Positions 21,001 through 36,000 of a DNA stretch of 64,000 nucleotides are shown one piece after another. Position numbers: made by a program. This DNA is from Ophelia neglecta (Eukaryota). The DNA lies in assembly GCA_965285935.1 (NCBI GenBank), contig OZ260665.1, positions 55,490,001 to 55,554,000 of the forward strand, written 5' to 3'. Numbering within the stretch: position 1 is the stretch's first letter; the number at the start of each line of letters is the position of its first letter.

Positions 21001-24000
21001 GTGTGACACCGATCGCTTTAAACTCTATCTCATTGTCTGCTGCTTCCAGTGCAGTCAACCGAGTCAACGGTGGATCGTCTGAAATACCATCTGTTATCAA
21101 CAGAGCCACATTGCGGGCTTCTGGACGATCTCCATTGTTGACCTCGCCAAACATCTCGTAAGTAGTAAAGTATATAGCGTCTGCCGTATTCGAACCCCGG
21201 CTGGTCGGTCTTGGTGCCAGCAAAATATCCTGTTGCATGTCTGGTTTATTGTTATGTGTGTTGAGTCTGAATACGCTGTTAGCCTGGTCCGTATATGTGA
21301 CCATACCAACGTTGGCCTGGCCTGGACCCACATTGAGTTGTTCCGTCAGAGAGGCGAGGAAAGCGAGCGTTGCCGGCCAGTCAACAGCCGGGTCCCCATC
21401 CACAACAAACACCAAATCAACTAGACAATCTACAGAGAACAACATCTAGTAAGAAAACCAATATCATCACACAATAAACAACAAAATATGTGATAAACAC
21501 AAAGCAAACGAGTACAGTACTAAACATAATAAGACATGTTTATCGATGATCAAAAACTATTCAAGACAGCATGCCAAGCTATATACAGTAACATCAAAGA
21601 TGGATACAAAACTGTGAAACAAGTCAAGCAAAAATTGAAACAGCCATGCCCATGTGTGCTGAGTACTTATGTCTTACTGGTTTCTACTTGTCGTCTGTAC
21701 CGACGTTTCTGCTCGGTGGTGTACTCCTCCTCAGCTCGCATCACCGCCTCTCGTCTCTTCCGGCCACTGGTACCTAGGAACACCGAAAGGTTGCATTTAC
21801 TATCAACACCAGGACATATTGATATTGTTCATGCTCGGTGGCGCTTTGTTGATATTCTGTTTAGTAATACGAATCTACTCATGTGACCCATAAATATTAT
21901 CTATCATATTTGTCGATTTATCAGGATAAAATGTTGTTTTTTCACCGGGTACCTGGACAGTTGTAGTTGCTGTTTCTGATCTGAAATCCCTCATTACACA
22001 TACAAAAGTAACTATCATATGTATCTCGGCAAATCTGGGCACACGTCGCCTGACTCCGCACACATTCGTTCGTGAACATTGCTTAAAAAAGAAAATAATC
22101 ATATCACTAAATATAGGTCATGGAACATGACAATCTACTCATGAGGAAAAGCCTTGGAACATACATTTTCCTGAAAACTTTATGAAAAATATGTATTTGT
22201 TTACCGCCTTCTGCTGTTCCGGGTGGTCCTGGTGGCCCAACAGGTCCAGGGGATCCTGAAACAGTCAACTATTTGTATCAAATACCACATGACTCGTAAT
22301 TACTTAAGACTGTAATATATTAAATGGACACAGATGTATTTATTAAATTCTAGACAAATTACAAATGATTAACTATTTGTGAAGCAAATGTCATTGCACC
22401 TACCGATACCGGGATCTCCTCGCGGACCTGGCGGACCTGCGCCACCCTGCTGCCCCGGTGGGCCCATTGAACCAATGGGTCCTGGTTCGCCCTGGATCCC
22501 ATTTCGTCCTTTTTAATTGAGAAGAAGAGTACAATATTATCAAAATATTATCAAGCCACTCCGATCATGTCAAACGTATATAAACGAGACAGCACCCTTC
22601 TGAATAGGCGCCCTCTGGCAAACGTGAACATCTATTGCAAGCCTATTTACCTGCTGGCCCCTCAGGGCCAATAAAGCCCCTTGGTCCCTCTGGACCTGTG
22701 CTGCCTGGGATACCTGGCTCTCCGTTACGTCCAGGTGGTCCGGCTTCTCCCGACCTGCCTGGGTCCCCTGAAATAAAACACGTTTGAAGACGTCAGTCCA
22801 AAATTCAAGAAAAAAAGGGAGTTGATAATCGTCAGAAAATGCAAAACAATTGTTCCAAAATCATTATAAACTAACGAACTTGTTAACTAATGAACTTGTT
22901 AAATAAAAAAGGAAACATAGGCCTAGGATCTTAGGAAGAATGGCATACATGCAATTGGAAAGGCCGTTTTCAATACCTACCCGCTTGGCCAGGAAACCCC
23001 CTCGGTCCAAAAGGCCCAGTACTCCCGGGTGGGCCGGGCTCTCCTGGTCTGCCATTCTCGCCAGGGATACCAGATTGTCCAGGCTCTCCTAACCAAGTAT
23101 ATTAGGCAACTCCATATTATACACACGAATAAAGAATAATGTCAATAGATTCAATATACCAGGATCTTGGCTCTTTTTCTACCCACGAGCATCTTTAAGG
23201 GAAAATGATAGCGGTAGAAGTATAACCTCGACTTCCAGGTTCTCCGTTCCTCCCAGGCAAACCGGGATTTCCTGGTGGGCCTGGTTGTCCGAATGGCCCC
23301 GTGGCCCCAATCCTCCCGTCCCGACCAGGTATTCCGGCCGATCCACTGGCACCAGTAGGACCAAACGGCCCTGTTGCGCCTAGAAAAAGAGACAGTAGAA
23401 CCTCCAGCACTTAACAAAGGCTTTATTCCGTATTTTACATAGCCATATATTTACACAGGTAGGCCAAGTCATTGTCCAGGCACTGATTTTTTTCCGAATC
23501 ATGTATCAAAGTTACCTGATTATGTAAACCTACCAGTAGGTCCCGTCGGTCCGTTGTCCCCAGGACGGCCAATGCGGCCTTCTGGACCCGGAGGGCCAGA
23601 GGCACCAGGCCTGCCAGGTCTTCCTTCCGGGCCAATAGATCCTTAAATCAGAACAAATAGGCCTTCGTTCCGAGAGATGTAACACTTTGCATTGACAGAA
23701 TATCTTGCAAGTATGTCCCAATCCCCGAGGTCGGTCAAGCGTTATTTATTCTTAGAGGGTTGTATTGATCTAATAGACCTACCTGGTTCTCCGGCGAATC
23801 CCCTGGGCCCAAAGGGACCGGTAGACCCTGTAGGTCCTCTGGCACCTGCCACACCCGTGGACCCCGTTGGCCCGTTTCTTCCGGGCGGGCCAATACCACC
23901 AGGAGCACCTGTTATGGTTGTCAAACATAAATCTTATTTACATCAACAGCCTTGTTAAAGTGACGGATACGTTGTTGGCAATAGACGTAGGCAGGTAAGT

Positions 24001-33000: not shown

Positions 33001-36000
33001 AGGGCAGTTCAGGCCCCTGTGTCGAATATTGTCTTGTAGAAAACTGTTGTTGGTGAAGGTACTACGCTTGCCCACCTGTAGCGCCGGTAATACCCGGCCT
33101 GCCGGTGTCCCCTGCGTCTCCCTTTGAACCCGGACCACCCCGCTGTCCCTCGGGCCCCGGGCTGCCATCACGGCCTGGTTCTCCAGCTTCACCTGAAACA
33201 CATTAGGGTAGACTTATGGCCAATTCAGAACCGCTCCAATCGGAGCGCTGGATCTATGGGCCTACAGTCTGAATGTAACGAGCTTGGAAACAAGGTAAAG
33301 TGACATTCCCGAAAAGAAACTTGCCTGCTATCCCCCTTTCGCCGGCAGCGCCTGATCTTCCCGGTAGCCCATCTCTCCCGGCTTGCCCCGTTGGCCCAGG
33401 CCGGCCGTCCCGACCCGCCGGACCCATGCTTCCTGTCTGCCCAGTTCGTCCTGTATAACCGGTGGCCCCAGACGTGCCCGATTGCCCCTTCTGTCCGGTG
33501 GGTCCAGGTCGTCCGTCTGTACCTCGGATCCCAGCCTCTCCCCTGTCACCCTTATCACCGGGTCTGCCTTCAGCTCCTGAAAGTAAAGTTATACAATCAT
33601 AGAAGTGAGTTTGAAATGTGACTATACACATACGTCAGGAATACTATCAGAAAAGTCACACAAGCGCAACAGAAGCCTGCATCATCATGTTCTTTCATTG
33701 GGTAAGGCCTTTAGTTTAGGAATTTATTGTAAATAGAAAGTGTTTTCAAACCGGGACTGCCGACTGCCCCTGTTCGTCCTTGTCTTCCGTCTGGTCCAAG
33801 GGGTCCAGTTGGGCCCGTGGGTCCCGTTGGACCAGTGGGCCCTGTTCTCCCCGGGTCTCCCTGCCGCCCACTAGCACCGGTCGCCCCAGGTGGTCCGGAG
33901 AGGCCGGTAGCCCCGGATTCTCCATTCCTGCCACTGCTCCCTGTCGAGCCCGGCTCTCCGCGCTCTCCAGGCCGACCCTGTGGACCTTCTCTACCCGACG
34001 CACCTAGGGTCAGACATTAACAGAAATTAGGCCTGAACAGTCTTGTTCTACAATAATTCGGAAGAAGGGGCTCTCACATTGTCCATCAGCGACTCGTCCC
34101 CAATTAATTAATAAACCAAGCTAAATATAGATTTTACCTGTAGCCCCGGAGGGTCCCGGGCTGCCCGATGACCCTGTGGCCCCGGTGATTCCAGACCTCC
34201 CCGGAGTGCCCTGAGATCCGGGCTGTCCATCCCGACCCGAAGTGCCTTGAGGACCAGTTGGCCCCACTGGACCCGTCTGCCCGCTGGGACCTTCAGGACC
34301 GCTCGGGCCAACGGGTCCTGAAAATTGACGTTCCTATATATTACCACTTTGGGGACTGGACTTTAAACATTAGTTCTGTCATTTTACAACAATCAATCAA
34401 CAATATTATTAGTTACTCTCATTTAATGTCTAACGGCTAATCAGCTTCATTATGTAGACCAAATTGAAGAGAGACCTGTATGGCCTGTGGCCCCTGTTCT
34501 TCCAGCCCGACCATCGCTCCCCTGGGGTCCTGTGGATCCCGCTTCTCCACGGGGACCCTGTGTGCCTGTCGCTCCGGTCCGCCCTGTAAATAGTATCAAA
34601 TGGTCCAGCACATGCATGTCCTTTGGTTATAAATATCATGAATAAAAGTTTACTACGAGCCGCATAACATAGACTAGTATAGGATTCAACACAGACATAT
34701 TATCTAGACCCACATAAGCATTATTTGCTTCAGGAGTCTTTGTTGGTTTTATTATTTACTTTTGTATACTAATGTTGTTGTTAATAAAATAGTACTACTA
34801 CTACATATATACATATATCCTTACCGGTTTGTCCGGTAGCTCCCGTAATTCCTCCTCCAGTACCTCCCGGCCCAGTCGGCCCCGGCAGGCCGGGCCTACC
34901 CGGAGGTCCTGGCGACCCAGGAGGACCGGGGGGACCTAAAATAACCAAACAAGAATTTACTACCTCGCATAATTAATGTAACAAAAATGTATATCGCAAT
35001 TATTTCATAAATCAACAACTAGATTAAACCTTCCTATACTTTTAACCTGAATTTCAGTAAGGCTCTTGGTCATGTTACACCAAAATTTCATAATTATTGA
35101 CTGAAAAAACTAAGATTCACCAGCTATGGGTTTGGGACAAGCAAGTTCCACAACTTTATTGACTAGCGACTTGGCGGCGAGGTCGTCGAAGCTGGCCACG
35201 GTGACGACATCGTTTTCGCCGGTAGCGATCACACTGAGCTCTCCTCGGTTCACCTTCTCGGTGATGCCCACGGTGATCATGTGGATATCAGCCGAGCGCA
35301 CCGCGGACGCCTGGGGTATAAGATCTATCAATCTCACGTTACTTTGACCGTCAGTGATCAAAATACCGACATCTTCTATCTGATAGCGGTTGCCATTGTC
35401 TGTGCTGAACATCTCGGTCCTAGAATTAATAAATTTCATTAGGACTTGAATTAGATCTAGCTAATTATTATTCTAGATTTCAACAGCCTGGTCCATGCCA
35501 TCCTTTTCTTAAGATTCATTGGTGATTACGGGTGCTAAACTGCAGCTGGTCTGATGTGAATACTTATTTTTATGGTTGACATATTTTGCATCTATTTTTG
35601 CTTCTAGTAGTTGGATCAATAAAATTATGTATCATTGGTTTAATACATAATTATAGTTAATTTCTATTCTAAGAACTGAAGAAATGGGGGTGGTGGGGGC
35701 ATATCAGGTATGTGCATAAAGCATCATCTACCTGACCAACACTGACACAATGAATTACCAATTGCCACGCCTTTCATTATCACATAGTATTACTACAAAT
35801 AAGTAAAATTCAATTGCAGTTCTCAATATAAGCGACGATGGAAATGTTTATACACAATTAAAACACATCTACATTAAGTTTGTCTTAAACTGTGCTGTTA
35901 GAAGGAATTTCCCCACATTGATGTCCATCTGCCGTAGCCAAATATACCTGAGTAGGGCAGTGGCAATAGAACTGAATTGGCGAGAGTTCCTACCTGAGAA

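What the first reader, a model, noticed from the sequence alone, without database searches (positions are those of the whole stretch)
22651..34583. Exceptionally long, apparently uninterrupted triple helix in gene A (~594 triplets)
Seen: 31 consecutive exons, each a multiple of 9 nt, total 5346 nt (1782 aa); imperfections were seen only in the terminal helix exons (GPG-GTG-G-GIT; GDP-GI-G). Established: fibrillar collagens have ~1014-residue helices, and longer ones (IV, VII) are heavily interrupted. Inference: a rod of about 0.5 micrometre at ~0.29 nm per residue, reminiscent of the very long annelid cuticle collagens.
Basis: partly seen in the sequence, partly recalled or inferred. Interest (0 to 1): 0.7.

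Follow-up and report, generated by a model that had tools for sequence, protein, structure and literature searches.

The report
Giant unbroken membrane-anchored collagen gene
An invertebrate gene encodes a collagen rod about half a micrometre long with no break in its repeat, flanked by adhesion-type domains and ending in a membrane anchor that probably serves as a cleavable assembly handle.

Summary
On the minus strand, 22651-34583, there are 31 exons. All are multiples of 9 nt and all split a Gly codon after its first base. They total 5346 nt, or 594 Gly-X-Y triplets, with 594 of 594 Gly and no stop. Two exons have alternative in-register donors, so the range is 592-594. With three flanking helix exons the collagenous domain is 1869 residues. 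It has two single-residue register faults near the ends and a perfect run of 608 triplets.

The gene reads: signal, 3 VWA, helix, cbEGF, a dibasic (furin-type) linker, 2 VWA, EGF-like modules, transmembrane segment, short tail. A tandem paralogue (gene B) and two full-length database proteins (P0074, P0091) share this plan. Their helices are shorter and interrupted: about 346 and 204 triplets.

The helix is therefore exceptional within its family and among vertebrate-type collagens, but it is not a record. Annelid collagens of up to 8859 aa are in print. Thr fills 22% of Y positions (50% in gene B), as in tube-worm cuticle collagen. Whether all 31 exons enter one mRNA could not be tested. The window is not human.

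The parts
39035..39043 (-). Possible first coding exon (ATG plus two codons, donor GTAATT). It would splice to the hydrophobic start of the first VWA exon and complete a signal peptide.
   Evidence: Read by eye; inferred only. Relatives P0074 and P0091 start with Met plus a hydrophobic leader.
38163..38843 (-). N-terminal VWA domain 1 (ORF bounds). Its start holds the hydrophobic core of the presumed signal peptide.
   Evidence: Pfam VWA E=1.7e-34; 19-residue hydropathy 1.84 at the ORF start.
36693..37394 (-). N-terminal VWA domain 2 (ORF bounds).
   Evidence: Pfam VWA E=1.6e-40.
35121..36435 (-). N-terminal VWA domain 3, split over three exons (ORFs 36262-36435, 35993-36202, 35113-35460). The last exon ends on G|GTGAAT at 35121, in phase 1.
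   Evidence: Pfam VWA matches profile positions 1-35, 30-88 and 90-168 in order. Junction read.
34825..34935 (-). First helix exon, 111 nt. Pro-rich triplets, then one extra residue (register fault), then three regular triplets.
   Evidence: Pfam Collagen weak, E=0.0049.
22651..34583 (-). The 31 helix exons of the finding: 5346 nt, 594 perfect Gly-X-Y triplets, all phase 1-1.
   Evidence: Pfam Collagen E=1.3e-23 and 5e-20 for the two largest exons.
28693..28854 (-). Intron 16, 162 nt. It is the only intron that stays open and in frame if retained, which would insert 54 non-collagen residues.
   Evidence: About one such intron among 11 whose length is a multiple of 3 is near chance (my estimate).
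22404..22508 (-). Helix exon 32, 105 nt: 11 triplets plus a two-residue 'GI' step (donor GTAGGT). The alternative donor at 22410 would remove the fault.
22205..22255 (-). Last helix exon, 51 nt: five triplets, two of them GPP, then the end of the helix.
21953..22081 (-). Calcium-binding-type EGF module directly after the helix, phase 1-1.
   Evidence: Pfam FXa_inhibition E=1.6e-6 and EGF_CA E=3e-4, both below the curated cut-off. 44% identical to gene B's module. 38-39% identical to the same position in P0074 and P0091.
21678..21773 (-). Candidate 96-nt linker exon (phase 1-1) with two dibasic R-x-K/R-R motifs, placed between the EGF module and the next VWA domain.
   Evidence: ORF; splice sites; motifs. 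P0074 and P0091 carry a K/R-rich R-x-K/R-R site at the same place. Not found in gene B.
20684..21429 (-). C-terminal VWA domain 1, followed by a Pro/Thr-rich linker. The metal-site motif is degenerate (D-G-D-P-A).
   Evidence: Pfam VWA E=1.4e-23; aligned with gene B; acceptor read.
19430..20361 (-). C-terminal VWA domain 2, in three exons (ORFs 19993-20361, 19765-19941, 19430-19678).
   Evidence: Pfam VWA on profile positions 1-66, 65-113 and 110-148; collinear with gene B.
17303..18798 (-). A Cys-rich EGF-like module (18679-18771) and two calcium-binding EGF modules (18403-18534, 17303-17422).
   Evidence: Pfam EGF_CA E=2.1e-6 and 7.9e-7; collinear matches to gene B and to P0074 and P0091.
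16295..16545 (-). Last exon: a 19-residue transmembrane segment, a basic stop-transfer cluster, a Ser-rich tail of about 65 residues, and the stop codon.
   Evidence: Hydropathy 2.52, followed by K-C-V-Q-R-R-R-A-R-A-K. Phase-1 acceptor read. Same layout in gene B, P0074 and P0091.

Best explanation
Gene A (about 16295-39043, minus strand) encodes a large type I membrane-anchored procollagen of a VWA/EGF-containing, non-fibrillar family. Its order is: signal peptide, three VWA domains, a 1869-residue collagenous domain, one cbEGF module, a short dibasic linker, two VWA domains, three EGF-type modules, one transmembrane segment and a short cytoplasmic tail. I propose the following mechanism. Three chains are brought together at the membrane by the C-terminal VWA/EGF region. 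The triple helix nucleates at the Pro-rich triplets at the C-terminal end of the collagenous domain and zips towards the N-terminus, with no register fault to cross for 608 triplets. This gives a stiff rod of about 0.53 micrometre carrying a globular head of nine VWA domains. The helix is held by hydroxyproline (Pro in 23% of Y positions) and by Thr (22% of Y positions), which may be O-glycosylated as in tube-worm cuticle collagen. A furin-type convertase then cuts the dibasic linker just after the cbEGF module. That cut frees the head, rod and EGF module from the membrane-bound C-terminal part, which thus acts as an anchored C-propeptide. Shown here: the exon structure, the Gly periodicity, the domain order, and conservation of the plan and of the dibasic site in relatives. 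Inferred: inclusion of all exons, trimerisation, hydroxylation and glycosylation, cleavage, and the tissue.
For: Perfect periodicity: 594 of 594 Gly in 31 phase-compatible exons. The helix joins in phase to the VWA exon upstream and the cbEGF exon downstream. Domain identities come from Pfam. Gene B is collinear from cbEGF to the transmembrane segment. P0074 and P0091 are full-length, start with Met plus a leader, and have VWA, Collagen, EGF_CA and a C-terminal hydrophobic segment followed by basic residues. They are 46% identical to each other, and their cbEGF, VWA and EGF parts match gene A in the same order. Each of these two proteins has exactly one R-x-K/R-R site, right after the cbEGF module, and gene A has two such motifs in a phase 1-1 exon at that place. 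An unrelated collagen with a C-terminal anchor, P0017, also has a dibasic site directly after its helix. Pro-rich triplets lie at both ends of the helix. No pair of exons looks like a recent duplicate: at most 65% identity over 72 nt, median 53%, 465 pairs. By analogy, dibasic cleavage releases membrane collagens and nematode cuticle collagens (abstract of PMC10538796).
Against: There is no transcript or protein evidence. All 31 exons are phase 1-1, so any of them can be skipped without breaking the frame. Intron 16 would stay in frame if retained. The dibasic linker exon has no counterpart in gene B, and the EGF exon can splice straight to the VWA exon in the same phase, so the linker may be optional. 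No orthologue with a comparably long helix was found: 0 of 150 best hits reach 594 triplets. The relatives have interrupted helices of 204 triplets. The start codon is guessed. The first C-terminal VWA domain has lost its metal-site motif. The three word-index searches could only see proteins of up to 2000 residues.
Confidence: 0.55

Rival explanations
1. The exons are real, but the mature products are much shorter. Exon skipping or alternative exon choice among the 31 symmetric exons gives a set of helices of ordinary length, and the 594-triplet chain is rare or never made.
For: Every exon is phase 1-1 and a multiple of 9 nt, so all skips preserve frame and Gly register. Relatives manage with 204 triplets and gene B with about 346.
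Against: There are no arrays of similar, equal-sized neighbouring exons of the kind used for mutually exclusive splicing: best pair 65% identity over 72 nt. All 31 exons keep perfect Gly and an open frame, and all have usable splice sites. That argues each is under selection, though not that all are used together.
Confidence: 0.2
2. Genes A and B are chains of an annelid-type cuticle collagen. The Thr-rich Y positions are the glycosylated stabilising positions described for the tube-worm cuticle collagen, and the VWA cluster is the terminal globule seen by electron microscopy.
For: Thr fills 132 of 594 Y positions in gene A and 172 of 346 in gene B, where Pro fills only 25. [quoted passage not shown] 1996 known by title only). 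Collagens with both VWA and triple helix are reported in annelids and a mussel but not in three other molluscs (PMC5597905, passages read). The best VWA hits are molluscs and annelids.
Against: The rod is 0.53 micrometre, against the 1.5-2.5 micrometres I recall for cuticle collagens. The published giant annelid collagens have 7719-8859 aa (PMC12403961). The organism is unknown. No cuticle collagen sequence was available for comparison. A membrane anchor has not been described for them in anything I read.
Confidence: 0.15
3. The length is an assembly artefact, caused by expansion or mis-joining of repetitive collagen sequence.
For: Collagen repeats are prone to mis-assembly, a caveat raised by the authors of PMC12403961. 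The window holds one gap, at 9989-10242.
Against: The exons are not near-copies of each other. A self-comparison of the window gave only 5 non-self matches, none between helix exons. The gap lies outside the gene. Introns are all different in length and composition.
Confidence: 0.03
4. The locus is a decaying or silent duplicate that makes no functional protein.
For: The first C-terminal VWA domain has a degenerate metal-site motif, and the start codon was not found in the first VWA exon.
Against: There is not one stop, frameshift or Gly replacement in 5346 nt of helix. The phases are intact at every domain junction examined.
Confidence: 0.03

Closest known systems
Unnamed VWA-collagen-cbEGF-VWA-EGF-TM proteins P0074 (2119 aa) and P0091 (2117 aa) from the representative library
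   Same: Same domain order. Signal-like N-terminus. A cbEGF module directly after the helix (38-61% identical to genes A and B). A dibasic site after that module. C-terminal VWA, EGF modules, a transmembrane segment and a basic stop-transfer cluster.
   Different: Their helices have 204 triplets, with a register fault about every 25 triplets and one 12-residue break. Thr fills only 4% of Y positions. Gene A has 608 perfect triplets and 22% Thr.
Gene B, the tandem paralogue in the same window (about 49053-62854, minus strand)
   Same: One VWA, a helix, cbEGF, two VWA, EGF modules, and a transmembrane segment with tail. Same strand, same phase-1 junctions, collinear protein matches.
   Different: About 346 triplets with three two-residue insertions. 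Thr in 50% and Pro in 7% of Y positions. One N-terminal VWA instead of three. No dibasic linker found.
Vertebrate VWA-containing collagens VI, VII and XXVIII
   Same: VWA domains flank a collagen helix. [quoted passage not shown] Type VII-like proteins were the top library hits for the largest exon. As I recall, type VII is also a rod of about 0.42 micrometre.
   Different: Type VII-like hits are broken into 14-22 runs, the longest 75 triplets. As I recall, collagen VI has a helix of about 335 residues. None of these has cbEGF modules or a membrane anchor (recalled).
Membrane collagens XIII, XXIII, XXV (MACITs) and XVII
   Same: Collagenous ectodomain on a single-pass membrane protein, released by convertase cleavage at a dibasic site (abstracts of PMC4678570 and PMC10538796).
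   Different: Those are type II proteins with an N-terminal anchor and interrupted helices (same abstracts). Here the anchor is C-terminal, after a signal-type N-terminus, so the orientation is type I.
Giant annelid collagens and annelid cuticle collagen
   Same: A very long helix plus globular domains, and Thr in stabilising positions in Riftia (PMC11766948). Gene predictions reach 8859 aa (PMC12403961).
   Different: Gene A's helix is 1869 residues, 4-5 times shorter. The domain content of the published giants was not given in the section I read, and supplements are closed.
[quoted passage not shown]
   Same: Collagen combined with EGF, EGF_CA or FXa_inhibition domains, arranged as tandem duplicates (PMC4595640, passages and legend of Fig. 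6 read).
   Different: Neither VWA nor a transmembrane segment is mentioned in the legend.

Membership tests
Collagen superfamily (Pfam PF01391) | Gly at every third residue over long stretches; matches the Collagen profile | tested here: met
   594 of 594 Gly. PF01391 E=1.3e-23 and 5e-20 for the two largest exons.
Fibrillar collagens (clades A-C) | C-terminal COLFI propeptide domain | tested here: not met
   The 20 ORFs scanned around and downstream of the helix gave only VWA, EGF-type and Collagen hits at or above Pfam's curated cut-offs, and no COLFI. The helix is followed in phase by a cbEGF exon.
Fibrillar collagens (clades A-C) | Major helix of about 338 triplets built from 54-bp-derived exons that start with an intact Gly codon (recalled) | tested here: not met
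   608 perfect triplets. Exon sizes run from 72 to 387 nt and only 7 of 31 are multiples of 54. All exons split the Gly codon after its first base.
Collagen VI / XXVIII type | VWA domains on both sides of the helix | tested here: met
   Three VWA domains upstream and two downstream.
Collagen VI / XXVIII type | Short helix (about 335 residues, or about 530 with interruptions; recalled), and a secreted protein without EGF modules or anchor | tested here: not met
   Helix of 1869 residues, with cbEGF modules and a C-terminal transmembrane segment.
Collagen VII | VWA plus fibronectin type III repeats at the N-terminus, a long interrupted helix, and a C-terminal Kunitz domain | tested here: not met
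   No FN3 or Kunitz hit in the ORFs scanned. The helix is uninterrupted. Type VII-like hits end in Kunitz-like sequence and have 14-22 runs.
MACIT and other known membrane collagens | Type II orientation: N-terminal cytosolic domain and anchor | tested here: not met
   The hydrophobic segment and basic cluster lie in the last exon. The N-terminus looks like a signal peptide, as in P0074 and P0091.
VWA-collagen-cbEGF-VWA-EGF-TM family (P0074/P0091 type, unnamed) | Domain order, with the cbEGF module directly after the helix and a C-terminal anchor | tested here: met
   Collinear tblastn matches and the same Pfam set; anchor.
VWA-collagen-cbEGF-VWA-EGF-TM family (P0074/P0091 type, unnamed) | Dibasic R-x-K/R-R site between the cbEGF module and the next VWA domain | tested here: inconclusive
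   Present in a well-flanked candidate exon of gene A. That exon can be skipped in frame and is absent from gene B.
Annelid cuticle collagen | Molecule 1.5-2.5 micrometres long with a terminal globule (recalled from Gaill et al.; a review states 'very long triple helix' and 'globular domains') | tested here: not met
   The computed rod is about 0.53 micrometre (1869 residues). The globular VWA head is present.
Annelid cuticle collagen | Thr rather than Hyp dominating the Y positions (Riftia type) | tested here: inconclusive
   In gene A, Thr 22% is about equal to Pro 23%. In gene B, Thr is 50% and Pro 7%. Glycosylation cannot be tested with these tools.
Annelid cuticle collagen | Sequence relationship to a known cuticle collagen chain | not testable with these tools
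   No reference sequence was available. The published peptide data (Mann et al. 1996) were not readable here.

The most novel reading that the evidence does not exclude
Genes A and B represent an undescribed class of collagen: a type I membrane-anchored procollagen. Its C-terminal VWA/EGF/TM part would act as a membrane-bound assembly propeptide, removed at a conserved convertase site. The released product would be a perfectly regular rod of about 0.53 micrometre, stabilised by Thr and Hyp and carrying a VWA head. On this reading the family supplies the Thr-rich, probably glycosylated collagens of a lophotrochozoan apical matrix or cuticle, whose genes have not been tied to the classical biochemistry.
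Probability: 0.2. Interest if true: 0.7.

Novelty: new variant of a known kind. Interest (0 to 1): 0.45.

Why it matters
Collagen folding is thought to start at one end and proceed like a zip, and long helices usually carry breaks. A natural chain with 608 perfect triplets, next to a paralogue and relatives with shorter, interrupted helices, offers a comparison for how length and regularity affect folding, stiffness and packing. The C-terminal membrane anchor with a conserved convertase site suggests another way to bring three chains into register, at the membrane through an anchored propeptide. That differs from the soluble C-propeptide of fibrillar collagens and from the N-terminal anchors of the known membrane collagens. 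The Thr-rich Y positions give a genetic lead for Thr-glycosylation as an alternative to hydroxyproline. None of this changes a major open question, and much longer annelid collagens are already in print.

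Tried and rejected
1. I tried to reach full-length relatives of over 2000 aa by giving a long unspliced reference with a one-exon region.

The organisms of P0017, P0074 and P0091 therefore stay unknown.

3. Word-index searches with two VWA exons gave only distant multi-VWA proteins of molluscs and annelids, at 25-43% identity. With the largest helix exon the search gave only generic, mostly vertebrate collagens. All three searches were limited to proteins of up to 2000 aa, so they say little about orthologues.

4. P0017 looked like a relative at first, with a Thr-rich helix, EGF modules and a C-terminal anchor. 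It has IgGFc-binding domains instead of VWA and matches the window only in EGF modules. I rejected it as a family member.

5. Mutually exclusive exon arrays: I found no similar neighbouring exons.

6. A literature search for intron phases of collagen VI genes found nothing usable, so statements about exon phases in vertebrate collagens are recalled.

7. A Pfam scan of eight other ORFs outside the two genes found nothing.

8. Not done: a charge or hydrophobicity periodicity (D-period) test, and any fold or search of the whole chain.

9. Not done: a three-copy complex prediction of a helix exon, because a pass would not have changed my odds.

10. Mini-exons of fewer than 4 triplets, or non-collagen exons hidden in the larger introns, were not excluded.

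11. Supplements of PMC12403961, PMC4595640 and PMC5597905 may list domain architectures of long or EGF/VWA collagens. They were closed.

Full report
**Scope and limits.** All coordinates are window coordinates, and the gene is on the minus strand. Totals are sums over exons, and junction codons were checked from the flanking bases. I do not take the window for human. The gene plan has no human counterpart, and the best non-collagen matches are mollusc and annelid proteins at 25-43% identity. The N run at 9989-10242 lies outside the gene and was left alone.

**The observation.** G+C and GC skew mark out 22-35 kb and 54-62 kb as C-rich on the plus strand.

A scan for Gly-X-Y runs found 54 runs (1007 triplets) on the minus strand against 10 short runs (46 triplets) on the plus strand.

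Between 22651 and 34583 there are 31 runs. Each is preceded by AG whose G is the first base of a Gly codon. Each is followed, in the Gly register, by G|GT, or once by G|GCAAGT. Every exon therefore starts at the second base of a Gly codon and ends on the first base of the next.

Taking the last in-register donor gives exons of 72-387 nt, all multiples of 9. They total 5346 nt = 594 triplets, with 594 of 594 Gly, no stop and no Cys.

Exons 10 and 13 have a second in-register donor one triplet upstream, so the total is 592-594. Either choice keeps the register.

Exons average 66% G+C and introns 24-46%. Of the 30 introns, 28 have stops in the read-through frame. Intron 24 would shift the frame. 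Only intron 16 (162 nt) would stay open.

**The ends of the helix.** Upstream, the last exon of a VWA domain ends on G|GTGAAT at 35121. The next exon (34825-34935, 111 nt) begins the helix with Pro-rich triplets and carries one extra residue before its last three triplets.

Downstream, exon 22404-22508 adds 11 triplets and then a two-residue step. This assumes the strong donor GTAGGT. A weak donor six bases upstream would give no fault.

Exon 22205-22255 adds five triplets, two of them GPP, and ends the helix. The next exon (21953-22081) is a cbEGF module.

The collagenous domain is therefore 1869 residues with two one-residue register faults. The perfect stretch between them is 3+594+11 = 608 triplets. 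At 0.286 nm per residue (recalled) this is about 0.53 micrometre.

**Composition.**
- X position: Pro 21%, Arg 20%.
- Y position: Pro 23%, Thr 22%.
- The commonest triplets are GAT, GEP, GRP, GRD, GPT and GPP.
- There are three RGD and seven KGD motifs.

**What the gene is.** Pfam scans of single ORFs and phase checks at the junctions give this order:
1. A probable signal peptide. Its hydrophobic core lies at the start of the first VWA exon. A three-codon ATG exon at 39035-39043 is my guess.
2. Three VWA domains.
3. The helix.
4. One cbEGF module.
5. A candidate 96-nt linker exon with two R-x-K/R-R motifs.
6. Two VWA domains, the first with a degenerate metal-site motif.
7. One Cys-rich and two calcium-binding EGF modules.
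8. A last exon with a 19-residue hydrophobic segment (hydropathy 2.52) followed by a basic cluster and a Ser-rich tail.

A signal at the N-terminus plus a hydrophobic segment with basic residues on its C-terminal side means a type I membrane protein with the whole collagen outside the cell. No COLFI, C4, FN3 or Kunitz domain was found.

**Support from relatives.** Gene B, upstream on the same strand (about 49053-62854), has one VWA domain, a helix of about 346 triplets, cbEGF, two VWA domains, EGF modules and a similar anchor and tail. It is collinear with gene A from the cbEGF module to the last EGF module.

A full scan of 1.84 billion representative proteins with the largest helix exon gave 24022 hits. 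Among the best 150, two full-length proteins, P0074 and P0091, have the same plan:
- They start with Met and a leader.
- They carry VWA, Collagen, EGF_CA/FXa_inhibition/cEGF and a C-terminal hydrophobic segment followed by basic residues.
- They are 46% identical to each other.
- They match genes A and B in the same order, and the cbEGF module directly after the helix is 38-61% identical.
- Each has exactly one R-x-K/R-R site, immediately after that cbEGF module.

This is the position of gene A's candidate linker exon, which is why I think the exon is real. Gene B shows no such site.

**How unusual the helix is.** P0074 and P0091 have 204 triplets, with a one- or two-residue fault about every 25 triplets and one 12-residue break. 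Gene B has three two-residue insertions.

Among the best 150 hits:
- The longest perfect run is 377 triplets, in a protein with Thr in 77% of Y positions and almost no Pro. From that composition I would guess it is microbial or viral; this is my guess only.
- The next is 337 triplets, a protein whose tail looks fibrillar.
- The median is 70.
- None has 594 triplets in total.
- The top-scoring hits are type VII-like, with Kunitz-like tails, broken into 14-22 runs of at most 75 triplets.

Gene A is thus far outside its own family and outside vertebrate-type collagens.

It is not a record. The Alvinella genome paper (PMC12403961, section 12 read) reports collagens of 8859 aa in Alvinella and 7719-8689 aa in Paralvinella transcriptomes, and a similar one in an earthworm. 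The longest siboglinid predictions are far shorter. An abstract (PMC11923368) states that bacterial collagen chains reach 6000 residues.

The library scan lists only the 150 best of 24022 hits, and the word-index searches were capped at 2000 aa. Longer relatives may therefore exist unseen.

**Are all exons used?** This cannot be settled here. All exons are symmetric, so skipping is always possible.

Against organised alternative use: no two exons are close copies. The best in-register identity is 65% over 72 nt, the median is 53% over 465 pairs, and blastn finds only short patches. Mutually exclusive arrays usually show near-copies.

That every one of 31 exons keeps perfect Gly and good splice sites shows each is maintained, not that all are joined. 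I put constitutive inclusion at roughly 0.6-0.7.

**Mechanism proposed.**
1. Three chains meet at the membrane through the C-terminal VWA/EGF region.
2. The helix nucleates at the Pro-rich C-terminal triplets and zips N-wards, as accepted for collagens (abstract of PMC11923368).
3. Stability comes from hydroxyproline, and perhaps from glycosylated Thr as in Riftia cuticle collagen (review PMC11766948, passages read; the original paper is known to me by title only).
4. A convertase cuts the dibasic linker and releases the VWA head, rod and cbEGF module.

Dibasic cleavage that frees membrane collagens and nematode cuticle collagens is documented (abstract of PMC10538796), but those anchors are N-terminal. 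MACITs and collagen XVII are type II (abstracts of PMC4678570, PMC10557271 and PMC8623354).

My searches turned up no description of a type I, C-terminally anchored collagen. That covers only the open-access library.

The tissue and the partners of the VWA head are unknown.

**Comparison with the literature on related architectures.**
- The pearl-oyster genome paper (PMC5597905, passages read) reports collagens with both VWA and triple helix in two annelids and a mussel, but not in three other molluscs.
- The Lingula paper (PMC4595640, passages and a figure legend read) describes tandemly duplicated shell collagens with EGF-type domains.

Both fit a lophotrochozoan origin, but neither could be tested by sequence here.

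**Verdict.** The helix is very long and clean for its family, gives a rod of about 0.5 micrometre, and has a real compositional echo of annelid cuticle collagen. It is not uniquely long, and its membership of that group is unproven. The more interesting point is the architecture around it.

Noticed in passing
window 49053-62854 (-): Gene B is a tandem paralogue with the same plan: one VWA, a helix of about 346 triplets, cbEGF, two VWA, EGF modules and a transmembrane segment. Thr fills 172 of 346 Y positions and Pro only 25. GRTGATG/GRTGSTG motifs are frequent, and there are three two-residue insertions in the helix (near 60883-60888, 59061-59066 and 55452-55457).
   Followed up: partly
window 28693-28854 (-): Intron 16 of gene A (162 nt) has no stop in the exon frame. 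If retained, it would place 54 non-collagen residues in the middle of the helix.
   Followed up: partly
window 33319-33324 (-): Exon 4 of the helix uses a GC donor (G|GCAAGT), the only non-GT donor among the 31.
   Followed up: no
window 27276-27425 and 57611-57755: A 150-nt stretch in an intron of gene A matches, at 72% and in inverted orientation, a stretch that overlaps a gene B helix exon boundary and its intron. It may be a dispersed repeat.
   Followed up: no
window 47199-47603: Tandem repeat of about 84-126 nt units (74-79% identity), in the gap between the two genes. Its minus-strand frame reads a repeated Cys/Pro/Trp-containing peptide with no Pfam match.
   Followed up: no
window 9989-10242: Run of 254 N (assembly gap or masked). 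Left as it is.
   Followed up: no
P0017 (library protein, 2365 aa): A different collagen with a C-terminal anchor: a 310-triplet helix with Thr in 42% of Y positions, IgGFc-binding domains, EGF modules and a transmembrane segment. A dibasic site follows its helix directly. C-terminally anchored collagens with post-helix convertase sites may therefore be a wider theme.
   Followed up: partly
window 20684-20870 (-): A Pro/Thr/Ser-rich stretch of about 60 residues follows the first C-terminal VWA domain of gene A. It looks like a mucin-type linker.
   Followed up: no
window 1-16000 and 39100-49000: No recognisable coding sequence. Eight of the longer ORFs had no Pfam match.
   Followed up: partly
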